Shown in pieces: positions 43,495-61,436 of a DNA stretch of 64,000 nucleotides. The stretch lies in the IMG/VR virus record IMGVR_UViG_2718217789_000006. One strand, given 5' to 3'. Origin of the DNA: a virus (lineage: Duplodnaviria; Heunggongvirae; Uroviricota; Caudoviricetes). Both the position numbers and the translations under genes were made by a program. Position 1 is the stretch's first letter. Each line of letters starts with the position of its first letter. The notes below the pieces were generated by a model. The model was not told where the DNA came from. It saw only the letters and a program-made list of their open reading frames with translations, and ran no database searches.

Positions 43495-44619
43495 ATGCGG
43501 ATGAAAGAATTAAATAAATTCAGAGTGATAGACCTCTTTTGTGGGGCAGGTGGATTATCTTATGGTTTTCTTCATGGAGAGATGTCTGACTACTTTGAAA
43601 GTATCCTTGCTATTGATAATAATGCTGCAGCTATAAATACCTACAATGCCAATTTTGGTTTGCATGGAGTTCAGGCAAATATTGAGGAGTGGGCATCCAG
43701 CAATACTGTTCCTGAGGCTGATGTGGTCATAGGTGGCCCCCCGTGTCAGGGATTCAGTTTATTGAATAAGAATCGTTATGGTGATCACCGAAGAGCATTG
43801 TGGGAGCCTTATATGGATGTCATTGAGCGTTCAAGGGCTTGTATGTTCGTCATGGAAAATGTCCCCGGATTGCTGATAAGCGATGAGTTTGCGGACATTA
43901 CGTTTAGAGCGAAATCCATGGGCTTTATTCTGCTTAATCCAATGGTGTTGAATACTGCTGACTATGGAGTACCTCAGACAAGAAAACGAACGATAGCAAT
44001 CGGTATCAAACGAGAACTCTTCGATGTGCATAGTATTCCGGCGTTCCCGCCAGCACCAACGCATCGTTCCCCTGATAAGGATGTCGCTTTGCCTGAATGG
44101 GTCTGTACGCGTGATGCAATTGGTGACTTACCTGCTCCTGTTGGAACTGATATTCGTAATGAACTTCCTCCGCTGAACTTACATTTTGGGCGTAATCCCA
44201 CACCTGTTTCTCTGGAGCGATATAAAGCGGTTCCACCAGGAGGTAACCGTTTCGATTTACAGAAAAAAAGACCTGATATAACCCCGGCGTGCTGGCTAAA
44301 AAAGAAATCTGGAGGGACCGATTTGTTTGGACGTCTGTGGTGGGACAGACCTTCAGTAACGATTCGTACTGAGTTTTTCAAACCGGAGAAAGGGCGATAT
44401 TTACATCCGGAAGAGGATCGGCCAATAACTCATCGTGAGGCAGCGAGATTAATGTCTTTTCCTGATAATTTCATTTTTACCGGTTCAAAAACTGAGATTG
44501 CAAAGCAGATCGGGAATGCTGTTCCACCGCTATTTGCGGCAAAAATCGCACAATATGTGTATGGAGTTTTGCAGGGACGGTATAAGAATAACATCAGTAA
44601 GAATAGTCAAGCAGCCTGA
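43495..44619 (+). CDS. DNA cytosine-5 methyltransferase
   Basis: Motif I DLFCGAGG, motif IV GGPPCQGFS, motif VI ENVPG; GAGG RBS 7 nt upstream. Confidence 0.85.
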   Translation: MRMKELNKFRVIDLFCGAGGLSYGFLHGEMSDYFESILAIDNNAAAINTYNANFGLHGVQANIEEWASSNTVPEADVVIGGPPCQGFSLLNKNRYGDHRRALWEPYMDVIERSRACMFVMENVPGLLISDEFADITFRAKSMGFILLNPMVLNTADYGVPQTRKRTIAIGIKRELFDVHSIPAFPPAPTHRSPDKDVALPEWVCTRDAIGDLPAPVGTDIRNELPPLNLHFGRNPTPVSLERYKAVPPGGNRFDLQKKRPDITPACWLKKKSGGTDLFGRLWWDRPSVTIRTEFFKPEKGRYLHPEEDRPITHREAARLMSFPDNFIFTGSKTEIAKQIGNAVPPLFAAKIAQYVYGVLQGRYKNNISKNSQAA

Positions 44620-44632
44620 AGGAAATCCAGAA

Positions 44633-45511
44633 ATGAATGGAGATTTGGTTGACAGCATAGTTGGTTTTGCTGAAGCCAGAAAGGAGTTTCATGCCCAATT
44701 GTTACTGAATACGCTCACAATTAATACTGCCGGAGTTGTTAGTAACGCAGATAGCAGTAACAAAAACAGTAAAGCTATAGCAAGAGAAATTGCTCGCTTC
44801 TTGCAGGCTGAAACGATTGGTGAACGTGTTGCAGGGCAAACATCTGGTAATCAGTTTGAGAGTATCTGCGCAGAGTTTATAGAAAAAACCTTTTTTAAAC
44901 TCAGCCACTTACGCCCTGGAAAATGGAATGTACATCAGGTTTCTGGTAGAAACAGATTAGAGATAGCTAAATATGAACAATATGCCCATCTTATAGCATT
45001 GGATAGTGCTGCAAAAAGTAATCCTCAGCTAGCTGCTGCACTGGGGAGTGATTATACGATTTCACCAGATATTATTGTTGAAAGAGAACCTGAATGTGAT
45101 CAAGTTATCAACAGTCCTGAATTACTGGTGGATGATTCTGTTACCCGCATGTCAGCTCTCAGGAGTTCGAATGGTGGGAAACCAATATTACACGCAAGTA
45201 TTTCCTGCAAATGGACAATAAGAAGCGACCGGGCCCAGAATGCTCGTTCTGAGGCATTAAATCTTATTCGCAACCGTAAGGGAAATCTCCCTCATGTAAT
45301 GGTTGTTACTGCTGAGCCTACTCCAAGTCGTCTGGCGTCTATTGCTCTTGGTACTGGTGATATAGATTGCGTGTATCATTTTGCGCTTTATGAACTTATA
45401 TCAGCAGTTGAAATACTGGGGCTCAGCGATGCAGCTGACATGCTTTCCGTGATGGTTAATGGTAAAAGATTAAAGGATATTTCTGATCTTCCCTTGGATC
45501 TTGCAGTCTGA
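44633..45511 (+). CDS. Putative type II restriction endonuclease paired with the methyltransferase
   Basis: 292-aa ORF starting 13 nt after the methyltransferase stop with AAGGA RBS; PD…K-like segment (…SPDIIVERE…ISCKWT…); assignment by context. Confidence 0.45.
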   Translation: MNGDLVDSIVGFAEARKEFHAQLLLNTLTINTAGVVSNADSSNKNSKAIAREIARFLQAETIGERVAGQTSGNQFESICAEFIEKTFFKLSHLRPGKWNVHQVSGRNRLEIAKYEQYAHLIALDSAAKSNPQLAAALGSDYTISPDIIVEREPECDQVINSPELLVDDSVTRMSALRSSNGGKPILHASISCKWTIRSDRAQNARSEALNLIRNRKGNLPHVMVVTAEPTPSRLASIALGTGDIDCVYHFALYELISAVEILGLSDAADMLSVMVNGKRLKDISDLPLDLAV

Positions 45512-50346: not shown

Positions 50347-52293
50347 ATGACATTTAAACATTACGATGTGGTCAGGGCGGCATCGCCGTCAGACCTTGCT
50401 GATGCACTTGCGCAAAAAATTCGTGAAGGATGGCAACCATACGGTGGGCCGTTTTCTTCGTATACGGATGATGGCGCAGCACTTATTCAGGCGATTGTCG
50501 CAGAAGGTGATGTGAGCACACCTGTTGTGGTGAAGCCGACAGGTGGAGAAGGTGCAGTAATCAGTGCCACCAGCGACCCGGAGTATTACTTTGTTGTGGT
50601 TCTGGCAGGGCAGTCAAACGGCATGTCGTATGGTGAAGGTCTTCCGCTGCCGGAGACATATGACCGTCCGGAGCCGCGTATTAAGCAACTGGCGCGTCGC
50701 AGTACGGTGACACCGGGTGGTGTCGCCTGTAAATATAACGACATCATTCCGGCGGACCATTGTCTGCATGATGTGCAGGACATGAGCCGCCTTAACCATC
50801 CGAAAGCGGACCTGTCAAAGGGGCAGTACGGAACCGTGGGGCAGGGGCTGCATATCGCCAAAAAATTGCTGCCGTTTATACCGGCGAATGCGGGCATTCT
50901 GCTGGTTCCGTGCTGTCGTGGTGGTTCAGCGTTCACCACCGGAGCTGATGGCACATACAGTGACGCGAGTGGTGCCTCGGAGAATTCAACCCGCTGGGGT
51001 GTGGACAAGCCGCTGTATAAGGACCTTATCGGTCGAACAAAAGCAGCACTGAAGAAGAATCCGAAAAATGTGCTGTTTGCCGTGGTGTGGATGCAGGGGG
51101 AATTTGATTTTGGCGGTACGCCGGCAAATCACGCAGCACAGTTTGGTGCGCTGGTTGATAAATTCCGTGCAGACCTGGCGGATATGGCAGGTCAGTGCGT
51201 CGGTGGCTCTGCTGGCGGTGTTCCCTGGATATGTGGAGATACGACGTATTTCTGGAAGCAGAAGAACGAATCCACGTACCAGACGGTGTACGGCAGCTAC
51301 AAAAACAAAACGGAAAAGAATATCCATTTCGTACCGTTCATGACGGATGAGAACGGGGTGAATGTGCCGACGAACAAACCGGAAGAAGACCCGGACATTC
51401 CGGGTATCGGATATTACGGTTCGAAATGGCGTGACAGCTCAGCCACCTGGACGTCACAGGACAGGGCGAGCCATTTCAGTTCATGGGCTCGCCGCGGGAT
51501 TATTTCCGACCGTCTGGCAACGGCGATTTTGCGCCATGCGGGAAGAGTGGCGCTAAACGCGGGGGCATCATCGACAGTATCAGAGGTGCGCCCGTCATCG
51601 CCTTCCGGTGCAGAAGCCACAGGCGTCACAACACTGCTCTCTTACCTTGCCAGCGAGTCAGAGGGAAGCCTGAAAGTACAGGGATGGTCAGCCAGTGGCG
51701 GCAAGGCAGAAGTGGTCAGCGATGCGGAGGGAACCGGAGGTAAGGCAGTGAAGCTGACCAAGGAAGCCGGTAAAAGCAGCTGGGTGCTGGAGTACGCCGC
51801 GGGCAACGGTGCGGCTCTGTTACAGAAAGGGGGGCAGATTCGCTGCCGCTTTAAGGTTTCGGGAGCGCTGGCTGCGAACCAGTATGTTATGGCGTTTTAC
51901 TGGCCGGTATCTTCACTGCCACAGGGCGTTGCCCTGACCGGAGACGGGGGGAATAACCTGCTGGCAGCGTTCTACATCCAGACAGATGCAAAAGACCTGA
52001 ATGTGATGTACCACAATGCGAAAGTGGCGACAAACAACCTGAAACTGGGAAGCTTTGGCGCATTTGATAACGAATGGCATACGCTGGCTTTCCGCTTTGC
52101 CGGGAATAACAGCCTTCAGGTGACGCCGGTTATTGATGGTCAGGATGGCACACCGTTCACGCTGACGCAGTCACCGGTCAGTGCCTTTGCGGCGGATAAA
52201 CTGCATGTGACAGACATTACCAGAGGTGCGACTTACCCGGTACTGATAGACAGCATTGCGGTGGAAGTGAACAGCACAGACACTGCGGCATGA
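50347..52293 (+). CDS. NanS-p-like sialate O-acetylesterase (intact copy)
   Basis: 648 aa; first late gene; SGNH-esterase-like core (…VVVLAGQSNGMSYGEG…); paralog of 1773..3623. Confidence 0.7.
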   Translation: MTFKHYDVVRAASPSDLADALAQKIREGWQPYGGPFSSYTDDGAALIQAIVAEGDVSTPVVVKPTGGEGAVISATSDPEYYFVVVLAGQSNGMSYGEGLPLPETYDRPEPRIKQLARRSTVTPGGVACKYNDIIPADHCLHDVQDMSRLNHPKADLSKGQYGTVGQGLHIAKKLLPFIPANAGILLVPCCRGGSAFTTGADGTYSDASGASENSTRWGVDKPLYKDLIGRTKAALKKNPKNVLFAVVWMQGEFDFGGTPANHAAQFGALVDKFRADLADMAGQCVGGSAGGVPWICGDTTYFWKQKNESTYQTVYGSYKNKTEKNIHFVPFMTDENGVNVPTNKPEEDPDIPGIGYYGSKWRDSSATWTSQDRASHFSSWARRGIISDRLATAILRHAGRVALNAGASSTVSEVRPSSPSGAEATGVTTLLSYLASESEGSLKVQGWSASGGKAEVVSDAEGTGGKAVKLTKEAGKSSWVLEYAAGNGAALLQKGGQIRCRFKVSGALAANQYVMAFYWPVSSLPQGVALTGDGGNNLLAAFYIQTDAKDLNVMYHNAKVATNNLKLGSFGAFDNEWHTLAFRFAGNNSLQVTPVIDGQDGTPFTLTQSPVSAFAADKLHVTDITRGATYPVLIDSIAVEVNSTDTAA

Positions 52294-54493: not shown

Positions 54494-54516
54494 TATTTTT
54501 GTTATCCGGAGAATGC

Positions 54517-54741
54517 ATGAAGAAATTACTGGTAACCGTAAAGCCTTTTCAGGGAACAATTCCGTTCCGTATTTTGCAGCGTGGTCGTGTTCTTGTTGAA
54601 GGTTCGTTCAGTGGTAAATGTACGCAATTACACTCCCGGACCTTTCAGGTGAATGCCACGAATGAAGAACTAACCGTGGAGTGTACGATGAATGCCGCTA
54701 AATGCCGCATGGCATCCGCTGCATTACAGCCAGTGTGTTGA
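54517..54741 (+). CDS. Hypothetical small protein downstream of Rz
   Basis: ATG with GGAGA RBS; Cys-containing 74-aa product without signal peptide. Confidence 0.4.
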   Translation: MKKLLVTVKPFQGTIPFRILQRGRVLVEGSFSGKCTQLHSRTFQVNATNEELTVECTMNAAKCRMASAALQPVC

Positions 54742-54949
54742 GCGACCTTATTATCCATGCGCGGTATTGTCGCCGTATTCCTGCATTAACAGAGACCGCA
54801 GCCCGACAGGGAGACTCCTCTGCGCGAGTGTGCGGGGATAATCAAAAACGATACACACCGGGGTTTACCGCGTTAACGGAGCGCGGCGTTGTCCCCTCAT
54901 AGTCGCCAGTCCGGTGCGATGGTGGAAGAAACTGGATTTTGTTGCAAAT

Positions 54950-55015
54950 GATAACCATTATCATTTTGCGGGTCCTCCTGGTGGGGTGGGCCTGAACACG
55001 GGGCGGGCGGCGCGG
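54950..55015 (+). other. Candidate cos/packaging region of prophage 2
   Basis: GATAACCATTATCATTTTGCGGGTCCT matches the prophage-1 cosQ-like motif; followed by GC-rich GGGGCGGGCGGCGCGG, 145 nt upstream of the terminase small subunit. Confidence 0.35.
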
Positions 55016-55159
55016 AAAAAGGCGCATTTTTTGATTTTTATGGCACCATCACCACCAGTGTAAGTTATTGATATATAGAAAAATAAAAATTTTTAGTGTC
55101 GAATCTGGTTGTTTTTTGTTCATCACTGGTGTGTGTTTACATAATTTTCAGGGGGAGTT

Positions 55160-55636
55160 ATGGATCGTGAATTAAAAAATCTGCATCTGAATATTTCCCA
55201 ACTGGCCGCATTATCCGGTGCTCATCGACAGACTGTTGCGGCTCGGGTAAAAAACATAAGCCCAGCCGGTGGTCATGAGAGCAATCTCAAACTGTACCGA
55301 CTGACAGATATCCTTGCCGAGCTGATGAAAGCTCCTCTGCCTGTAGATAACGAGGAAATGGATCCTCATGCGCGTAAAGCATGGTACCAGTCAGAACGTG
55401 ACCGACTGAAATTTGAGCAGGAAACTGGTCAGCTTGTGCCAGTCAGTGATGTCAGGCGGTCCTTTTCTGTCGTGGTGAAAGCGATAGTTCAGGTACTGGA
55501 AACCTGGCCTGACCGGCTGGAGAGGGACAGGGGGTGGACCGCATCACAACTGAATGAAGTACAGATTGTGGTTGATGAGATCCGCGACACACTGGAAAAG
55601 GCAGTCATTGACTGTTGTGATGAGGCCGATATGTGA
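55160..55636 (+). CDS. Terminase small subunit (non-lambda type)
   Basis: 158-aa ORF with N-terminal HTH-like segment, immediately upstream of and overlapping the large subunit. Confidence 0.6.
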   Translation: MDRELKNLHLNISQLAALSGAHRQTVAARVKNISPAGGHESNLKLYRLTDILAELMKAPLPVDNEEMDPHARKAWYQSERDRLKFEQETGQLVPVSDVRRSFSVVVKAIVQVLETWPDRLERDRGWTASQLNEVQIVVDEIRDTLEKAVIDCCDEADM

Positions 55637-57756
55637 ATCAGGTGAACGAGAGCCATAGCCGCGCATCCGATATCTGGCGCGAAGTGGCCTCGCTGTTTCG
55701 CCCACCTGGCCGGTTACCAGTAGCGGAAGCCATCAGGCGTTATATGCGGGTTCCACGGGGAGCCAATACTTCCGGTCCGTGGGAGTCATCGCTGACGCCC
55801 TATATGATTGACCCCATTAATACATTATCAGCCCGTGAATATGACGCGGTGGTGTTTGTGGGACCTGCGCGAACCGGGAAAACCGAAGGGCTGATTGATG
55901 GCTGGATTGTGTACGGCATCATCTGTGATCCGGCGGATATGCTGGTGGTGCAGATGACTGAGACGAAGGCGCGTGAGCATTCCAGAACGCGTCTTTCCAG
56001 GACGTTTCGCCACAGTCCGGAGGTCAGCAAGCGCCTCAGTCCTTCCCGTAATGACAACAACGTCCACGATAAAATGTTTCTTGACGGCTCCTTCCTGAAG
56101 ATTGGCTGGCCGTCGATCACCGTCTTTTCCTCTTCGGATTACCGTCGTGTGGCGCTGACGGATTATGACCGTTTCCCTGAAAACGTGGACGGGGAAGGGG
56201 ATGCCTTCACGCTGGCCTCAAAGCGTACCACCACCTTTATGTCCTCGGGGATGACCCTGGTCGAGAGTTCACCGGGGCGGGATATCACCGATACCAAATG
56301 GCGTTGTGGTGGCGCACATGAGGCACCGCCAACAACGGGGATCCTGTCACTGTATAACCGGGGAGACCGCCGCCGGTGGTACTGGCCGTGTCCGCACTGC
56401 GGGGAATATTTTCAGCCGGTGATGGATAACATGACCGGATACCGGAATAACCCGGATTTTGTGGCTGCCGGTCAGGCTGCCCGTCTGATGTGTCCGCATT
56501 GTCGCGGGCTGATTGCCCCTGAGCAGAAACGCGAACTGAATAACCAGGGGATCTGGCTTCGTGAAGGTGAACGGGCGGCGGCGGACGGCAGTATCACCGG
56601 AACGCCACGAAACTCCCGGATTGCGTCATTTTGGATGGAGGGGCCAGCTGCGGCGTTTCAGACCTGGGAACAACTGATTTTTAAACTGCTGGCGGCAGAA
56701 GAAGAGTATGAGCGAACCGGCAGTGAAGAGACTCTGAAAGCGGTGGTGAACACCGATATCGGACGACCCTATCTGCCCCGTTCAGCCACGGAACAGCGTA
56801 AAAGTGAACTGCTTGAACAGCGTGCCGAGCCGTTTCCCCGGCGATCTGTGCCGGATGGTGTGCGTTTTATTGAGGCAACGGTTGACGTACAGGGCGGTAA
56901 AAATCGCCGTTTTGTTGTGCAGATCACCGGATACGGAGAGCAGGGGGAACGCTGGATTGTTGATCGCTACAACATCCGGCATTCACTGCGCTGCAGTCCC
57001 AACGGTGAAAGTCTGCCGGTTGATCCGGCGGCATATCCGGAGGACTGGGATTTGTTGCTGACGGATGTGTTCCATAAAACATGGCCGCTGGCTTCTGATC
57101 CGGATGTGCGCATGCGTCTGATGGCCATGGCGGTGGATACGGGAGGGGAAGCCGGGGTGACAGATAACGCCTATCGTTTCTGGCGTCGTTGCCGGAGTGA
57201 CGGACTGGGCAACAGGGTGTTTCTGTTCAAGGGGGATGGACTTCGCCGTGACAGGCTGATTAACCGAACCTTCCCGGATAATACCGGCAGAAGTGCCCGC
57301 CGTGCCAGAGCCAGTGGCGATGTCGCGCTGTGGCTGGTTCAGACGGATGCGTTTAAGGATCGTGTAAATAATGCCCTGTGGCGTGACACACCAGGGCCGA
57401 ACTATATCCACTTTCCCGACTGGCTGGGGCGGTGGTTTTACGATGAGCTGACCTATGAAGAGCGCGGCAGTGACGGAAAATGGCGAAAACCGGGCAGGGG
57501 CGCTAACGAAGCGTTTGACCTGCTGGTTTATGCGGATGCGCTTGCCGTTCTGCATGGTTACGAAAAGATCCGCTGGCCCTCCGCACCGGACTGGGCACAG
57601 CGGGAAACGTGGCTCGTCTTCCCGCAGGAGCGTTCTGGTGAAACGGTATCCCCGGAACTGACGGCCGGGGCAGAAAAACGCCGTCGCCGGAAGAAAAAAC
57701 TGTGGACGGAGCGTGCGGAAGATAATCCATGGATAACATCAGGAGGCTGGTTGTGA
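55633..57756 (+). CDS. Terminase large subunit (GTG start)
   Basis: 707 aa; Walker A VGPARTGKT. Confidence 0.8.
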   Translation: MNQVNESHSRASDIWREVASLFRPPGRLPVAEAIRRYMRVPRGANTSGPWESSLTPYMIDPINTLSAREYDAVVFVGPARTGKTEGLIDGWIVYGIICDPADMLVVQMTETKAREHSRTRLSRTFRHSPEVSKRLSPSRNDNNVHDKMFLDGSFLKIGWPSITVFSSSDYRRVALTDYDRFPENVDGEGDAFTLASKRTTTFMSSGMTLVESSPGRDITDTKWRCGGAHEAPPTTGILSLYNRGDRRRWYWPCPHCGEYFQPVMDNMTGYRNNPDFVAAGQAARLMCPHCRGLIAPEQKRELNNQGIWLREGERAAADGSITGTPRNSRIASFWMEGPAAAFQTWEQLIFKLLAAEEEYERTGSEETLKAVVNTDIGRPYLPRSATEQRKSELLEQRAEPFPRRSVPDGVRFIEATVDVQGGKNRRFVVQITGYGEQGERWIVDRYNIRHSLRCSPNGESLPVDPAAYPEDWDLLLTDVFHKTWPLASDPDVRMRLMAMAVDTGGEAGVTDNAYRFWRRCRSDGLGNRVFLFKGDGLRRDRLINRTFPDNTGRSARRARASGDVALWLVQTDAFKDRVNNALWRDTPGPNYIHFPDWLGRWFYDELTYEERGSDGKWRKPGRGANEAFDLLVYADALAVLHGYEKIRWPSAPDWAQRETWLVFPQERSGETVSPELTAGAEKRRRRKKKLWTERAEDNPWITSGGWL

Positions 57757-57965
57757 GCACAGAAGAAGCCAGAGAAATGATACAGCGGTACCGTGAAGCG
57801 GAAATGGCCGTACTGGAGGGAAAGTCTGTCACCTTCAACGGGCAGCAACTGACGCTGGAAAGCCTTTCTCAGATCCGCGCCGGACGTCAGGAGTGGGAAC
57901 GCAGGCTTGCCGCGATGGTGAGCCGCAGGCGGGGAAAACCGGGATTTAAACTGGCGAGGTTTTAA
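57753..57965 (+). CDS. gpW-like head-tail joining protein (GTG start)
   Basis: 70 aa from GTG with AGGAGG RBS; similar size and position to lambda W. Confidence 0.5.
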   Translation: MSTEEAREMIQRYREAEMAVLEGKSVTFNGQQLTLESLSQIRAGRQEWERRLAAMVSRRRGKPGFKLARF

Positions 57966-59467
57966 TGGCAATTATTGATGATGTGATCGGCGTGTTTTCC
58001 CCCGGGTGGAAAGCAGCCAGACTGCGTTCAAGGGCGTTAATCATGGCCTATGAGGCGGTGAAACCGACCCGGACACATAAAGCCCGGCGGGAAAATCGCT
58101 CTGCTGATCAGCTCAGTAAATACGGTGCGGTTTCCCTGCGGGAGCAGGCCCGTTTTCTGGATATCAATCATGACCTGGTGATTGGTGTGTTTGACAAGCT
58201 GGAAGAGCGGGTGATTGGTGCCAGGGGAATTATTGTGGAGCCTCAGCCATTACGAAAAAACGGGGAAATGGCGGCTGAGCTGGCTGCGGATATCCGCCGT
58301 TTGTGGGCTGAATGGTCCGTGAGTCCGGATGTGACAGGGCAGTATACCCGTCCTGTGCTTGAACGTTTACTGCTGCGGACCTGGCTGCGGGATGGTGAAG
58401 TGTTTGCGCAGATGGTCAGTGGTGCGGGAAACGGTCTGGAACGGACGGCGGGAGTGCCATTCTGGCTTGAGGCGATGGAGCCGGATTTTGTTCCCATGCG
58501 CACTGATGAATCCGCCGGACTGAATCAGGGGGTTTTTCTTGATGAGTGGGGAAGACCGAAAAAATATCTGGTTTATAAAAATTATCCGGTCAGCGGCCGG
58601 CAGAGTGATACGAAAGAAATCGCTGCCGGAAAAATGATCCACCTGAAGTTCACTCGTCGTCTGCATCAGACGCGAGGCTCATCCATGTTATCGGGGGTGC
58701 TGATGCGGATCAGTGCCCTTAAGGAGTATGAGGATGCGGAACTGACAGCGGCGCGTATTGCTGCGGCGCTGGGACTGTATATCCGTAAAGGTGACGGACA
58801 GGACTATGAAGATCCGGGGAGCAAAGAGACCGAGCGGGAAGTCCATATCACCCCGGGTATTATTTATGACGATTTGCGCAAGGGCGAGGATATCGGCATG
58901 GTCAAATCTGACCGTCCCAATCCCAACCTTGAAACTTTCCGCAACGGCCAGTTGCGTGCAGTGGCAGCAGGCAGTCGTCTGAGTTTTTCCAGTGCGGCGC
59001 GTAACTATAACGGCACCTACAGCGCCCAGCGGCAGGAGCTGGTCGAGTCCACGGATGGTTACCTGATCCTGCAGGACTGTTTTATTGGCGCGGTAACCCG
59101 CCCGGTGTACCGGACATGGCTGAATATGGTGGTTGCGGCAGGTCTGCTGAAAATTCCGGCGGATGTGGAGATGAAAACGCTATATAACGCGACGTATTCC
59201 GGTCCGGTGATGCCGTGGATCGACCCGGTTAAGGAAGCTGAAGCCTGGAGAATTCAGATCCGGGGTGGTGCAGCGACAGAATCTGACTGGGTGCGTGCTG
59301 GTGGGCGCAATCCGGATGAGGTCAAACGTCGCCGCAAGGCTGAAATTGATGAAAACAGCAGACTGGGGCTGGTCTTTGATACTGACCCCGTCAACGACAA
59401 AGGAGGCAACAGTGCCGGAACTGAACGACAGTATCAGCGCGACACCGAAAGCCAGCATGAAGAATAA
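57965..59467 (+). CDS. Portal protein
   Basis: 500-aa ORF between terminase and protease/capsid. Confidence 0.75.
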   Translation: MAIIDDVIGVFSPGWKAARLRSRALIMAYEAVKPTRTHKARRENRSADQLSKYGAVSLREQARFLDINHDLVIGVFDKLEERVIGARGIIVEPQPLRKNGEMAAELAADIRRLWAEWSVSPDVTGQYTRPVLERLLLRTWLRDGEVFAQMVSGAGNGLERTAGVPFWLEAMEPDFVPMRTDESAGLNQGVFLDEWGRPKKYLVYKNYPVSGRQSDTKEIAAGKMIHLKFTRRLHQTRGSSMLSGVLMRISALKEYEDAELTAARIAAALGLYIRKGDGQDYEDPGSKETEREVHITPGIIYDDLRKGEDIGMVKSDRPNPNLETFRNGQLRAVAAGSRLSFSSAARNYNGTYSAQRQELVESTDGYLILQDCFIGAVTRPVYRTWLNMVVAAGLLKIPADVEMKTLYNATYSGPVMPWIDPVKEAEAWRIQIRGGAATESDWVRAGGRNPDEVKRRRKAEIDENSRLGLVFDTDPVNDKGGNSAGTERQYQRDTESQHEE

Positions 59468-61436
59468 ATCCTGGTTCAGGATGCTGGCGGGTAGTCAGGG
59501 TGAGGCAGATATTTATATTTATGACGAGATTGGTTTCTGGGGAGTTACCGCGAAGCAGTTTGTCAGCGAACTGAATGCACTGGGTGATATCACCCACATT
59601 AATCTCCATATCAATTCACCGGGTGGCGATGTCTTTGAAGGCATCGCCATTTTTAATGCCCTGAAAAATCAGGGGGCGACCATTACCGTGTATGTGGATG
59701 GCGTTGCCGCCTCGATGGCATCTGTGATTGCGATGGCCGGTGATACGGTCATTATGCCGGAAAATGCCTTCATGATGATCCATAAGCCATGGGGATTCAG
59801 TGGCGGGGATGCTGAGGATATGCGCAGTTATGCCGATTTGCTGGATAAAGTCGAATCGGTACTGTTGCCAGCCTATGCGCAGAAAACCGGAAAAACCACC
59901 GATGAAATTGCCGCCATGCTGGCGGATGAAACCTGGATGTCCGGTGCCGAATGTCTGGCACACGGATTTGCTGACCAGGTGACACCCGCTGTTGAGGCAA
60001 TGGCATGTATTCAGTCAAAACGTACAGAGGAATTTAAAAAGATGCCGGAATCCATCCGAAACATGATTACTCCGCCACGCAACAGTGCCCCGCGTGATAC
60101 CACAGTGACAATCCCTGCACCGGAGGTAACAGAACCATCACCGGTACCGGCAGTGTCTGATGAGGCGACCATTCGCGCCCGCGTTATGGCAGAACAGAAA
60201 GCCCGCATGTCAGGCATTAACGATCTGTTTGCCATGTTCGGTGGTCGCTATCAGACGCTTCAGGCACAGTGCGTGGCTGATCCTGACTGTTCGCTGGAAA
60301 TGGCCCGTGAACGACTGCTGAATGAAATGGGCAAGGAGTCCTCGCCGACCAACAAAAATACACCGGCCCATATTTATGCCGGAAACGGCAATTTTGTGGG
60401 GGACGGGATCCGCCAGGCGATGCTGGCCCGTGCCGGATTTGAAAATGTCGAGAAGGATAACGCCTATAACGGGATGACCCTGCGTGAATGGGCTCGCATG
60501 TCACTGACGGAGCGCGGTATTGGGGTGGCCAGTTATAACCCCATGCAGATGGTCGGGCTGGCGCTGACGCACAGCACCTCTGATTTTGGCAATATTCTGC
60601 TGGATGTGTCGAACAAGGGGCTGATCCAGGGCTGGGAGGAATCAGAAGAAACCTTCCAGAAGTGGACCCGTAAGGGACGCCTGTCAGACTTCAAAACAGC
60701 GTATCGCGTGGGGATGGGCGGTTTTGGTTCTCTGCGCCAGGTTCGTGAGGGGGCGGAGTATAAATACATCACCACCTCAGATCGCAAGGAGACCATTGCA
60801 CTGGCCACTTACGGGGAGATTTTCTCCATCACCCGCCAGGCCATTATCAATGATGATCTGAATATGCTGGTGGACGTGCCGATGAAGATGGGGCGTGCGG
60901 CGAAGGCAACGATTGGTGACCTGGTCTACAAGGTGCTGACGGATAACCCGAAACTGTCCGACGGTAAGGCGCTGTTCCATGCCGATCACAAAAATATTGC
61001 CACCGGGGGGATCTCCGTTTCCGGACTGGATGCGGCCCGTCAGATGATGCGCCTGCAGAAAGAAGGCGATCGTGCCCTGAATATCCGTCCGGCCTTTATG
61101 CTGGTACCGGTGGCACTGGAGACGGTGGCGAACCAGACCATCAAATCGGCCAGTGTGAAAGGGGCGGATGCAAACGCCGGTGTCATTAACCCTATCCAGA
61201 ACTTTGCTGAGGTGATTGCAGAAGCGCGTCTTGATGCGGCAGACCCGAAAACCTGGTATCTGGCGGCGGCACAGGGCACTGACACCATTGAAGTGGCCTG
61301 GCTGGATGGTGTGGACACGCCATACATTGATCAGCAGGAAGGTTTCACCACTGACGGCATTGCCACAAAAATCCGTATTGATGCCGGAGTGGCACCACTT
61401 GACTGGCGCGGGCTGGTGCGTTCGTCGGTGGCCTGA
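59412..61436 (+). CDS. Fused ClpP-like prohead protease and major capsid protein
   Basis: N-terminal ClpP-like serine-protease region (…INSPGGDV…VDGVAASMASVIAMAG…), C-terminal capsid-like region; AGGAGG RBS before GTG 59412 (alternative ATG 59457). Confidence 0.65.
   Translation: MPELNDSISATPKASMKNKSWFRMLAGSQGEADIYIYDEIGFWGVTAKQFVSELNALGDITHINLHINSPGGDVFEGIAIFNALKNQGATITVYVDGVAASMASVIAMAGDTVIMPENAFMMIHKPWGFSGGDAEDMRSYADLLDKVESVLLPAYAQKTGKTTDEIAAMLADETWMSGAECLAHGFADQVTPAVEAMACIQSKRTEEFKKMPESIRNMITPPRNSAPRDTTVTIPAPEVTEPSPVPAVSDEATIRARVMAEQKARMSGINDLFAMFGGRYQTLQAQCVADPDCSLEMARERLLNEMGKESSPTNKNTPAHIYAGNGNFVGDGIRQAMLARAGFENVEKDNAYNGMTLREWARMSLTERGIGVASYNPMQMVGLALTHSTSDFGNILLDVSNKGLIQGWEESEETFQKWTRKGRLSDFKTAYRVGMGGFGSLRQVREGAEYKYITTSDRKETIALATYGEIFSITRQAIINDDLNMLVDVPMKMGRAAKATIGDLVYKVLTDNPKLSDGKALFHADHKNIATGGISVSGLDAARQMMRLQKEGDRALNIRPAFMLVPVALETVANQTIKSASVKGADANAGVINPIQNFAEVIAEARLDAADPKTWYLAAAQGTDTIEVAWLDGVDTPYIDQQEGFTTDGIATKIRIDAGVAPLDWRGLVRSSVA

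What the first reader, a model, noticed from the sequence alone, without database searches (positions are those of the whole stretch)
54950..55015. Prophage-2 packaging site shares a cosQ-like motif with lambda but differs at the presumed cosN
The 27-bp motif GATAACCATTATCATTTTGCGGGTCCT matches the prophage-1 cosQ region, but the downstream GC-rich sequence differs from GGGCGGCGACCT and the terminase is non-lambda. This may be a hybrid packaging site.
Basis: seen in the sequence. Interest (0 to 1): 0.35.

Follow-up and report, generated by a model that had tools for sequence, protein, structure and literature searches.

The report
Ordinary lambda-type cos site, prophage 2
The motif is real and marks the DNA-packaging cut site (cos) of a common E. 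coli O157 prophage whose large terminase is a distant lambda relative, so it is a normal member of a known family of sites rather than a hybrid.

Summary
GATAACCATTATCATTTTGCGGGTCCT lies at 54950-54976, with a 25/27 copy at 7901-7927 beside prophage 1's lambda cos (none expected by chance).

The 3' seven bases, GGGTCCT, are cosQ. 24 nt downstream is ACG|GGGCGG..., which keeps lambda's left half of cosN and the CG flanks. After it come an A/T-tract segment, a TerS-site-like repeat, an IHF consensus and two more repeat copies, then the terminase genes.

The large terminase is not "non-lambda": it is gpA family, 24% identical to prophage 1's. Only the small subunit belongs to another family (DUF1441). 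Relatives with this terminase pair have records that open at the homologous position (cdtI, LLS, Hafnia yong2). Cr-LKS3 has measured ends there. The cosB repeats co-vary with the TerS N-terminal domain.

So this is the standard pattern of lambda-like cos sites, not a hybrid.

One open detail remains. In this E. coli lineage the stretch between the conserved nick flanks is 10 nt (11 in some), not 12, offset by a 2-nt longer cosQ spacer. The overhang could therefore be 10 or 12 nt. Separately, the two prophages sit in tandem with their cos sites 47,050 bp apart. Interest is low.

The parts
54944..54966 (.). Palindrome AAATGATAA-cca-TTATCATTT just upstream of cosQ. It resembles a Fur box and is dispensable for packaging in relatives.
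   Evidence: Perfect 9-nt inverted repeat at 54946-54954 / 54958-54966. 54944-54962 matches 16 of 19 bases of the Fur consensus GATAATGATAATCATTATC. The only two window matches with up to 3 mismatches are here and at 7901-7919, with 0 expected. The palindrome is absent from the plaque-forming relatives mEp460 and LLS and from the L063 group.
54970..54976 (+). cosQ heptamer GGGTCCT, the packaging-termination signal.
   Evidence: Identical to the heptamer 23 nt upstream of prophage 1's lambda cosN. It is present at 20-24 nt from the nick flank in 80 of the related loci and in cdtI, LLS and yong2. Cr-LKS3 has GGGTCCC; Gifsy-2, Fels-1, Buttiauxella and Proteus have AGGTACT. Feiss 2015 states that the 7-bp cosQ is highly conserved. 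That lambda's cosQ is GGGTCCT is from my own knowledge.
54977..55000 (+). cosQ-cosN spacer, 24 nt, ending in the conserved CACG.
   Evidence: The spacer is 24 nt here and in all E. coli EHEC-type loci, 22 nt in mEp460, cdtI and LLS, and 23 nt in lambda-type prophage 1.
54999..55015 (+). cosN: CG|GGGCGGGCGG(CG)|CGCGG. The top-strand nick is predicted between 55000 and 55001. The bottom-strand nick is predicted after 55010 (10-nt overhang GGGCGGGCGG) or after 55012 (12-nt overhang GGGCGGGCGGCG).
   Evidence: The left six bases and the CG flanks are identical to lambda. Records of relatives open at the homologous base: cdtI starts GGGCGGGAGCGT|CGCGG, LLS is annotated '5' extended single-strand cohesive site GGGCGGCGCGCT', and yong2 starts at CGCGGG. 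Cr-LKS3 has a measured 9-nt overhang, GGGCTCGCG|CGCGG. The record of the induced phage ASU11 lacks 54994-55037, which spans this element.
55016..55043 (+). I2-like segment with A5 and T6/T5 tracts (AAAAAGGCGCATTTTTTGATTTTTATGG).
   Evidence: Read directly from the sequence. It is conserved as GGAAAAAGGC..TTTTT in relatives. Lambda I2 is an AT-rich segment with poly-dA and poly-dT between cosN and cosB (PMC4856287).
55044..55060 (+). R3-like TerS binding site CACCATCACCACCAGTG, at bp 44-60 from the predicted left end.
   Evidence: Its position matches lambda R3 (bp 50-65) and N15 R3 (bp 48-60). The motif CATCACCAC occurs at this place only in loci whose TerS has the ...GGHESNLKL N-domain. Loci with the ...APGSN(E/S)K N-domain have CATCATCATCAT instead.
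55061..55073 (-). IHF consensus TATCAATAACTTA (I1-like bend site).
   Evidence: It is one of only 3 matches to WATCAANNNNTTR in 64 kb (2.1 expected), so it is not significant on its own. A match sits at the same offset, +50 to +52 from CGCGG, in mEp460, 4F5, L084-87, L090-93, cdtI and the Proteus loci.
55096..55103 (-). R2-like element. GTGTCGAA on the top strand reads TTCGACAC on the bottom strand, i.e. inverted relative to R3 and R1.
   Evidence: GTGTCGA(A/T) is conserved at this place across the family. Assigning it as an inverted R site is my inference, by analogy with lambda's R3-I1-R2-R1 order.
55119..55131 (+). R1-like element TTCATCACTGGTG. CACTGGTG is the inverted repeat of CACCAGTG at 55053-55060.
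   Evidence: Inverted repeat I5. TGTTCATCAC is conserved just upstream of terS in all loci of the GGHESNLKL group.
55160..55636 (+). Small terminase subunit, DUF1441 family, 158 aa.
   Evidence: Pfam DUF1441, 2.3e-49. Annotated as terminase small subunit in ASU11, LLS, mEp460, Gifsy-2 and Fels-1. The N-terminal ~70 aa vary with cosB while the C-terminal 80 aa are 95-100% conserved.
55633..57756 (+). Large terminase subunit, lambda gpA family, 707 aa.
   Evidence: Pfam GpA_ATPase 1.8e-81 and GpA_nuclease 6.2e-84. 24% identity to prophage 1's gpA over 675 aligned columns.
7921..7962 (+). Prophage 1 lambda-type cosQ (7921-7927) and cosN (7951-7962), the comparison site. It has the same orientation, 47,050 bp upstream of the prophage-2 cosN.
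   Evidence: 94.8% identical to the lambda/DE3 'cos site'. Followed by Phage_Nu1 TerS at 8138-8683 and a 641-aa TerL at 8658-10583.

Best explanation
54944-55131 is the complete cos site of prophage 2. Prophage 2 is a lambdoid prophage of E. coli O157:H7 with the Gifsy-2 / Fels-1 / VT1-Sakai / mEp460-type head module. The site works like lambda cos. The small terminase (DUF1441) binds the cosB repeats through its N-terminal DNA-binding domain, probably across an IHF-induced bend (inferred). This places the gpA-family large terminase on cosN. The large terminase nicks the top strand after 55000 (ACG|GGGCGG) and the bottom strand 10 or 12 nt to the right, leaving 5' G+C-rich cohesive ends (inferred). 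DNA is then packaged rightward through terS and terL. At the next cos, the heptamer GGGTCCT (cosQ) together with cosN triggers the terminating cut (inferred from lambda). [quoted passage not shown] The elements read by the unrelated small subunit do not. That is why the site looks 'half lambda'. Shown here: the sequence elements, their order and spacing, the protein families, the co-variation of cosB with TerS, and that public records of relatives open at the homologous base. Not shown: the actual virion DNA ends of this prophage, and whether this copy is active.
For: Position: the site lies in the Rz-terS intergenic region of a late operon running Q, holin, lysozyme, Rz, cos, terS, terL, portal, ClpP-capsid fusion. 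The composite cosQ-spacer-cosN pattern occurs only at the two prophage cos sites, with 0 expected. TerL belongs to the gpA family. Records of relatives with the same TerS family open at the homologous base: cdtI, LLS and yong2. The cyanophage Cr-LKS3 has experimentally determined 5' cohesive ends there. For LLS and mEp213 the authors and M. Feiss infer the same kind of cos (PMC12315714). The record of the mitomycin-induced phage ASU11 (TerS 99% identical) lacks exactly 44 bp spanning the predicted cosN, and the mEp460_4F5 record breaks 5 nt from it. Both are as expected for physical ends. cosB repeats change together with the TerS N-domain. The natural chimera L041 has an mEp460-type N-domain and mEp460-type cosB but this lineage's C-domain and TerL. 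The pattern agrees with published rules: cosQ and the CG nick flanks are conserved, while cohesive-end bp 7-12 and cosB are variable (PMC4669245). The core is conserved in 86 loci and partly present in 1896 of 5426 complete E. coli genomes.
Against: No virion-end data exist for this prophage or for any phage with exactly this cosN allele. The segment between the conserved nick flanks is 10 nt rather than the canonical 12, so the overhang length and one nick position are uncertain. The LLS and mEp213 ends are inferred, not measured. I could not check how the cdtI and yong2 record starts were chosen. The IHF consensus alone is not statistically significant. In strain Sakai the apparently equivalent tandem pair Sp11/Sp12 was not packaged (PMC2669165), so this copy may be idle. 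The equivalence with Sp11/Sp12 is my inference.
Confidence: 0.85

Rival explanations
1. Hybrid site: a lambda cosQ block was recombined onto the cosN/cosB of an unrelated, non-lambda terminase.
For: The 25/27 identity extends 20 nt beyond the 7-bp cosQ into a palindrome that relatives can lack. Similarity to prophage 1 stops abruptly on both sides. Mosaic exchange does happen in this region: TerS chimeras such as L041, and two TerS N-domain/cosB types on one TerL.
Against: TerL belongs to the gpA family. cosQ, a 20-26 nt spacer and CG|GGG.. occur together in all lineages of the DUF1441/gpA group, including distant hosts. cosQ is therefore an ancestral part of this kind of cos. The left half of cosN is also lambda-like, so there is no lambda/non-lambda junction between cosQ and cosN.
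Confidence: 0.08
2. The site is a decayed or unused relic. The 2-bp shorter cosN is a defect, and the prophage can no longer be cut and packaged.
For: The interval is 10 nt instead of 12. [quoted passage not shown] The Sakai tandem prophages Sp11 and Sp12 showed no circularisation, replication or packaging.
Against: The 10-nt allele is the majority form (54 of 86 loci), found with two different cosB/TerS types and many different flanks. It is offset by a +2 change in the cosQ spacer, so cosQ-to-CGCGG stays at 34 nt as in mEp460 and cdtI. The 11-nt allele is in VT1-Sakai (Sp15), which is packaged and transferred. terS, terL, portal and capsid ORFs are intact here.
Confidence: 0.1
3. The conserved part of the 27-mer upstream of cosQ (54944-54966) is a regulatory protein-binding palindrome, for example a Fur box, and not part of the packaging signal. 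This is not exclusive of the main explanation.
For: 16 of 19 bases match the Fur consensus. The only two such matches in 64 kb are the two sites next to cosQ, with 0 expected. It contains a perfect 9-nt inverted repeat. It is kept in lambda-type, EHEC-type, cdtI and other lineages.
Against: No promoter or gene start is known next to it. It is absent from viable relatives (mEp460, LLS) and from the L063 group. No binding data exist, and I found no literature on it. Conservation could instead reflect a recombination linker or an accessory terminase contact.
Confidence: 0.15

Closest known systems
Bacteriophage lambda cos (cosQ-cosN-I2-cosB with R3-I1-R2-R1); a copy is in this window at 7921-8137
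   Same: The cosQ heptamer is identical and the spacer is 24 nt against 23. ACG|GGGCGG and the CG flanks at the nick sites are kept. An A/T-tract I2 follows. An R-like site lies 44-60 bp from the end, followed by an IHF consensus and further repeats. The site is upstream of terS-terL, and TerL belongs to the gpA family.
   Different: [quoted passage not shown] The cosB repeats are unrelated (CATCAC type, against lambda's R sequence). TerS is DUF1441, not Nu1 (no detectable similarity). TerL is only 24% identical.
cos of the DUF1441-TerS / gpA-TerL lambdoid phages: mEp213/LLS (inferred GGGCGGCGCGCT), cdtI, mEp460, Fels-1, Gifsy-2, VT1-Sakai
   Same: Same TerS and TerL families and the same ClpP-capsid head module. 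The layout is the same: cosQ, spacer, CG|GGGCGG..., CGCGG(A/G)AA, then I2 and cosB. The IHF site has the same offset, and GTGTCGAA and TGTTCATCAC precede terS.
   Different: Those phages have a 22-nt spacer plus a 12-nt interval. This lineage has 24 + 10 (or 24 + 11, as in VT1-Sakai). cosB follows the TerS N-domain type.
Cyanophage Cr-LKS3 cos (measured 9-nt 5' overhang GGGCTCGCG)
   Same: DUF1441-like TerS. It has the cosQ-like heptamer GGGTCCC, CG|GGGC at the left nick and CGCGGAA directly right of the overhang. The distance from cosQ to CGCGG is 35 nt, as here (34).
   Different: The spacer is 26 nt with a 9-nt overhang. The host is distant and the genome is G+C-rich. There is no obvious shared cosB.

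Membership tests
[quoted passage not shown] | 12-base 5' single-stranded cohesive ends on virion DNA | not testable with these tools
   This needs virion DNA. The sequence allows 12 nt (55001-55012) or 10 nt (55001-55010). Indirect support for ends at this place comes from the ASU11 record gap and the record starts of relatives.
lambda-like cos sites | Cohesive-end sequence with significant identity to GGGCGGCGACCT, especially bp 1-6, and CG flanking both nicks | tested here: met
   Bp 1-6 are identical and 7 of 12 bases match overall. CG precedes 55001, and CG follows both 55010 and 55012. Variation in bp 7-12 is described as common.
lambda-like cos sites | Conserved 7-bp cosQ about two helical turns upstream of cosN | tested here: met
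   GGGTCCT at 54970-54976, 24 nt from the nick flank against 23 in prophage 1.
lambda-like cos sites | cosB: TerS-binding R repeats with an IHF site between cosN and terS | tested here: inconclusive
   R3-like 55044-55060, IHF consensus 55061-55073, R2-like 55096-55103 and R1-like 55119-55131. Co-variation with the TerS N-domain supports the assignment. Binding was not tested.
lambda-like cos sites | Terminase large subunit of the gpA family | tested here: met
   Pfam GpA_ATPase 1.8e-81 and GpA_nuclease 6.2e-84.
lambda packaging-specificity group (Nu1-type TerS; lambda, 21, phi80, N15) | Small subunit of the Phage_Nu1 family recognising lambda-, 21- or N15-type R sequences | tested here: not met
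   TerS is DUF1441. There is no BLASTP similarity to prophage 1's Nu1, and no Phage_Nu1 hit even at E<=10. The cosB repeats are unrelated.
Gifsy-2 / Fels-1 / mEp213 / VT1-Sakai-type packaging and head module | DUF1441 TerS, gpA-type TerL of about 700 aa, lambda-family portal, fused ClpP protease-major capsid protein | tested here: met
   Pfam hits. tblastn of TerS gives 78% identity to VT1-Sakai, 65% to mEp460, about 50% to LLS, mEp213 and Fels-1, and 42% to Gifsy-2. RefSeq names the capsid gene 'ClpP-like prohead protease/major capsid protein fusion protein'.
Fur box (considered for 54944-54962 only) | Match to the 19-bp consensus GATAATGATAATCATTATC, and Fur binding | tested here: inconclusive
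   16 of 19 bases match, with 0 expected by chance. Binding and regulatory context cannot be tested here.

The most novel reading that the evidence does not exclude
Phages of this E. coli lineage may carry cohesive ends shorter than lambda's: 10 nt with this allele and 11 nt with the VT1-Sakai allele. Near-identical large terminases (98.5-100% over the first 400 aa) also serve a canonical 12-nt allele in L041. If so, one gpA-type enzyme places its two nicks by local flank sequence (CG|...|CGCGG) rather than by a fixed 12-bp stagger. The +2/-2 compensation that keeps cosQ-to-flank at 34-35 nt would then point to cosQ-to-cosB distance, not overhang length, as the constrained quantity. A second, less likely reading: because cos1 and cos2 lie 47,050 bp apart in the same orientation on tandem prophages, prophage 1's terminase could start at cos1 and terminate at cos2. 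That would package a chimeric but gene-complete lambdoid genome.
Probability: 0.3. Interest if true: 0.45.

Novelty: new member of a known kind. Interest (0 to 1): 0.2.

Why it matters
The main value is for annotation. The site is unannotated in RefSeq, yet part of the 1.2-kb query around it (54500-55700) matches 1896 of 5426 complete E. coli genomes, up to ten times per genome. Knowing it fixes the virion genome ends of a large class of EHEC prophages, including Stx1 phages of the VT1-Sakai type. [quoted passage not shown] That bears on how the 'defective prophage pool' of O157 moves virulence genes. The 10/11/12-nt length polymorphism of cosN on one TerL background is a small natural experiment on how gpA-type terminases choose their nick sites.

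Tried and rejected
1. Structure of TerS. Single-sequence AlphaFold2 gave mean pLDDT 54 with the N-terminal 39 residues below 50. That is too poor to compare with the Nu1 winged helix-turn-helix, so I ran no fold search.
2. PDB sequence searches with TerS and TerL found nothing useful.
3. I looked for virome contigs that end at the site, which would give physical ends. An exact scan of IMG/VR with CGGAAAAAGGCGCATTTTT gave 99 stretches, none at a contig end.
4. Literature. Vahanian et al. 2017 (cosN natural history) and Asakura et al. 2007 (cdtI phage) are not held. I therefore could not check whether the 10/11-nt alleles are already described, or how the cdtI record start was set. A text search for the cohesive-end strings found only the LLS paper. 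DUF1441 papers only name it as TerS in other phages.
5. The 61-aa ORF on the minus strand (54842-55027), annotated as hypothetical in CP-1639, was rejected as a gene. Natural 1-nt and 3-nt indels fall inside it in close relatives, and RefSeq does not call it.
6. The IHF consensus is not significant as stand-alone evidence, with 3 hits against 2.1 expected. I kept it only because its offset is conserved across lineages.
7. A weak terminator-like reading of GCGC-loop-GCGC-T6 at 55010-55032 was rejected. The stem is only 4 bp and relatives do not keep it.

Full report
OBSERVATION. The 27-mer GATAACCATTATCATTTTGCGGGTCCT is at 54950-54976 on the + strand. Its only relative in the window is at 7901-7927, with 2 mismatches, and none is expected by chance. 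The exact lambda cohesive end GGGCGGCGACCT occurs once, at 7951-7962. It lies 23 nt after the GGGTCCT of the first copy. That region is 94.8% identical to the lambda/DE3 'cos site'.

Downstream of the second copy the sequence reads GGGTCCT-CCTGGTGGGGTGGGCCTGAACACG-GGGCGGGCGGCG-CGGAAAAAGGCGCATTTTTT. The composite pattern GGGTCCT-N20-26-CGGGGCGG matches only these two places, with 0 expected. The sequence after the motif therefore differs from lambda's cosN only in part. ACG|GGGCGG is kept, one base further from cosQ, and only the right half differs.

CONTEXT. The window is 100% identical to E. coli O157:H7 genomes such as strain 9000. RefSeq annotation gives the gene order Q antiterminator, methylase, DUF6645, holin, lysozyme, Rz, a small hypothetical gene, then an unannotated 418-bp gap. 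After the gap come a DUF1441 protein, the large terminase, the portal, a ClpP-capsid fusion and tail genes.

Pfam gives these assignments:
- 55160-55636 is DUF1441 (2.3e-49).
- 55633-57756 is GpA_ATPase (1.8e-81) plus GpA_nuclease (6.2e-84).
- 57965-59467 is a lambda-family portal.
- 59265-61436 is ClpP plus capsid.

The large subunit aligns end to end with prophage 1's 641-aa gpA at 24% identity, E 4e-19. The two small subunits share nothing detectable; prophage 1's is Phage_Nu1. The statement 'the terminase is non-lambda' therefore holds only for the small subunit.

RELATIVES AND THEIR ENDS. The TerS has relatives at several distances:
- 99-100% identity in CP-1639, 1720a-02 and ASU11.
- 78% in VT1-Sakai and several Stx2 phages.
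- about 65% in mEp460.
- about 50% in LLS, mEp043/213 and Fels-1.
- 42% in Gifsy-2 and 35% in cdtI.

Several records open at the position homologous to 55001 or to the right-hand flank:
- LLS begins with an annotated '5' extended single-strand cohesive site GGGCGGCGCGCT' and ends ...GGGTCCTCCCGGCAGGGTGTCCTGCCACG.
- cdtI begins GGGCGGGAGCGT|CGCGGAAAAAGGC and ends ...GGGTCCTTCCGGTGGGGTGGCCTGCCACG.
- Hafnia phage yong2 begins at CGCGGGAAACGG, directly after the cohesive segment.

The LLS authors state that their end is inferred from TerL grouping and from the putative mEp213 cos analysed by M. Feiss (PMC12315714). It is supporting opinion, not a measurement. A measurement does exist for the cyanophage Cr-LKS3, which has a DUF1441-like TerS. 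Its 5' overhang is 9 nt, GGGCTCGCG (PMC9303873). The record ends ...GGGTCCCTCCAGACCCCCTTGAAGGCCGACGCG and begins GGGCTCGCG|CGCGGAAG.

Two virion-derived records add weak evidence. The mitomycin-induced phage ASU11 lacks exactly 54994-55037, 44 bp spanning the predicted cosN. The mEp460_4F5 record is broken 5 nt left of the predicted nick and has a 3-nt deletion inside the cohesive segment. Both are what assemblies do at physical ends.

ANATOMY. Numbering 55001 as bp 1, the elements are as follows:
- cosQ at 54970-54976.
- A 24-nt spacer.
- cosN at 54999-55015.
- An I2-like segment with A5 and T6/T5 tracts, to about 55043.
- CACCATCACCACCAGTG at bp 44-60. Lambda R3 is at bp 50-65 and N15 R3 at bp 48-60.
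- An IHF consensus on the minus strand at bp 61-73.
- GTGTCGAA at bp 96-103, which reads TTCGACAC on the other strand.
- TTCATCACTGGTG at bp 119-131, whose CACTGGTG is the inverse of CACCAGTG in the first repeat.
- terS starting at bp 160.

This order matches lambda's R3-I1-R2(inverted)-R1. Naming the individual R sites is my inference.

CO-VARIATION. I compared 89 loci fetched with the TerS and the phage records. The repeats follow the TerS N-terminal domain. Proteins with ...GGHESNLKL carry CATCACCAC and TTCATCAC repeats, mostly with an IHF consensus at +50/51 from CGCGG. This group includes the window, mEp460, L084-93 and Buttiauxella. Proteins with ...APGSN(E/S)K carry CATCATCATCAT and an inverted GATGATGAT. 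This group includes VT1-Sakai, LLS, yong2, Fels-1 and Atlantibacter. cdtI and the Proteus loci have a third type.

Between the window and the VT1-Sakai type, TerS identity per 20-residue block is 69, 75, 42 and 26% over the first 80 alignment columns. It is 95-100% over the last 80 aa. Their TerL is 99.4% identical over the 337 aa the locus covers. L041 is a natural chimera: it has the mEp460-type N-domain and cosB, but this lineage's C-domain and TerL (98.5% over 400 aa). This is the behaviour expected if the N-domain reads cosB and the C-domain holds TerL, as in lambda and phage 21.

WHY IT LOOKS HALF LAMBDA. Feiss et al. report that among lambda-like cos sites the 7-bp cosQ and the CG pairs flanking the nicks are highly conserved. 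Cohesive-end bp 7-12 vary freely, and cosB differs with packaging specificity (PMC4669245). Termination needs cosQ, cosN and I2 but is not cosB-specific. The prophage-2 site follows these rules, so 'hybrid' is not needed. The same combination is found in Hafnia, Atlantibacter, Buttiauxella, Proteus and Salmonella phages and a cyanophage, some with the cosQ variants AGGTACT or GGGTCCC.

THE OPEN DETAIL. In 86 loci I measured the interval between ACG| and the conserved right flank CGCGG(A/G)AA. It is 12 nt with a 22-23 nt cosQ spacer in mEp460, cdtI, LLS, Proteus and other lineages. In the E. coli EHEC lineage the spacer is always 24 nt, and the interval is 10 nt in 54 loci (including this window), 11 nt in 16, and 7 nt in one. 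VT1-Sakai has 24 + 11, and it is packaged and transferred in Sakai (PMC2669165).

The distance from cosQ to the right flank is therefore 34-35 nt everywhere. Lambda has 23 + 12 and Cr-LKS3 has 26 + 9. Near-identical TerL proteins go with 10-, 11- and 12-nt alleles.

Two readings fit. In the first, nicks follow the flanks, giving a 10-nt overhang GGGCGGGCGG here. The measured 9-nt Cr-LKS3 case is a precedent. In the second, the enzyme keeps a 12-nt stagger, giving GGGCGGGCGGCG at 55001-55012, which also has CG on both sides. The sequence cannot decide between them. I put them at roughly even odds.

STATUS OF THIS COPY. The packaging and head genes are intact ORFs, but activity is unknown. The arrangement matches the description of the Sakai tandem pair Sp11 (lambda-type heads) and Sp12 (the other head type). 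Those two were not excised, replicated or packaged. The identification with Sp11/Sp12 is my inference.

SIDE OBSERVATIONS. The two prophages are in tandem and in the same orientation. The order is cos1, prophage 1 head and tail genes, NleG-like effectors, then prophage 2 int/xis, early genes and lysis genes, then cos2. The cos sites are 47,050 bp apart. This is the cos-to-cos layout used in helper-packaging experiments. Cross-termination is therefore conceivable, though the cohesive ends would mismatch at 5 of 12 positions.

The part of the 27-mer upstream of cosQ is a perfect 9-nt palindrome matching the Fur-box consensus at 16 of 19 positions, at both cos sites. It is missing from viable relatives, so it is not required for packaging. 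Its role is unknown.

VERDICT. It is wrong on the 'non-lambda terminase' and the 'hybrid'. The site is a new, unannotated member of a known kind of site, with a minor unresolved variation in cosN length.

Noticed in passing
window 7951 to 55012 (junction of the two prophages near 31.9-32.1 kb): The two prophages are integrated in tandem in the same orientation. cos1 to cos2 is 47,050 bp and contains a gene-complete lambdoid genome in virion order: prophage 1 head, tail and effector genes, then prophage 2 int, early genes and lysis genes. Since termination in lambda-like phages is not cosB-specific, prophage 1's terminase might start at cos1 and terminate at cos2. In Sakai, Sp11 and Sp12 were not packaged, which argues against this.
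   Followed up: partly
window 54944-54966 and 7901-7923: A palindrome of the type AAATGATAA-N3-TTATCATTT sits directly upstream of cosQ at both cos sites. It matches the 19-bp Fur-box consensus at 16 of 19 positions. These are the only two such matches in 64 kb, with 0 expected. It is present in many lambda-like cos regions but absent from mEp460, LLS and the L063 group.
   Followed up: partly
L041 (IMGVR_UViG_2667528074_000002), locus 900-2873: A natural TerS chimera. The N-terminal domain and cosB are of mEp460 type with a canonical 22 + 12 cos. The C-terminal domain and TerL are of this window's type (TerL 98.5% over 400 aa). This points to a recombination joint inside terS between the DNA-binding and TerL-binding domains.
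   Followed up: partly
L205 (ASU11, ON416862.2) and L001/L003 (mEp460_4F5, LR595868.1): Public 'complete genome' records of virion-derived phages are damaged at cos. ASU11 lacks 44 bp (window 54994-55037). 4F5 is broken 5 nt left of the nick and lacks 3 nt of the cohesive segment. These are probably assembly artefacts at the physical ends.
   Followed up: yes
L059 (IMGVR_UViG_2541047125_000017), upstream of terS: One locus has only 7 nt (GGGCGGG) between the nick flanks, a 3-nt deletion relative to the common allele. It could be a sequencing error or a defective cos.
   Followed up: no
L202 (Gifsy-2), L203 (Fels-1), L089, L090, L096-L098: Salmonella, Buttiauxella and Proteus relatives, and one relative of unknown host (L089), carry AGGTACT instead of GGGTCCT at the cosQ position. 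This suggests a second cosQ allele, GGTNCT, in this terminase group.
   Followed up: no
window 54842-55027 (-): A 61-aa ORF overlaps cosQ and cosN and is annotated as a hypothetical protein in the CP-1639 record. Natural 1- and 3-nt indels fall inside it in close relatives, and RefSeq does not call it. It is probably not a gene.
   Followed up: yes
window 43501-45511 (-): An NgoMIV-family type II restriction endonuclease and a DNA cytosine methyltransferase sit in prophage 2's early region between the replication genes and DUF968/RusA/Q. This is a restriction-modification cassette carried as a prophage moron.
   Followed up: no
window 1773-3623 and 50347-52293: The DUF6645 gene downstream of Q is a pseudogene with an internal stop in prophage 1 but an intact 648 aa in prophage 2.
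   Followed up: no
window 32054-32066 (-): One of the only three IHF-consensus matches in the window lies about 10 bp from the end of prophage 2's integrase gene, at the prophage 1 / prophage 2 junction. It may be an att-arm IHF site.
   Followed up: no
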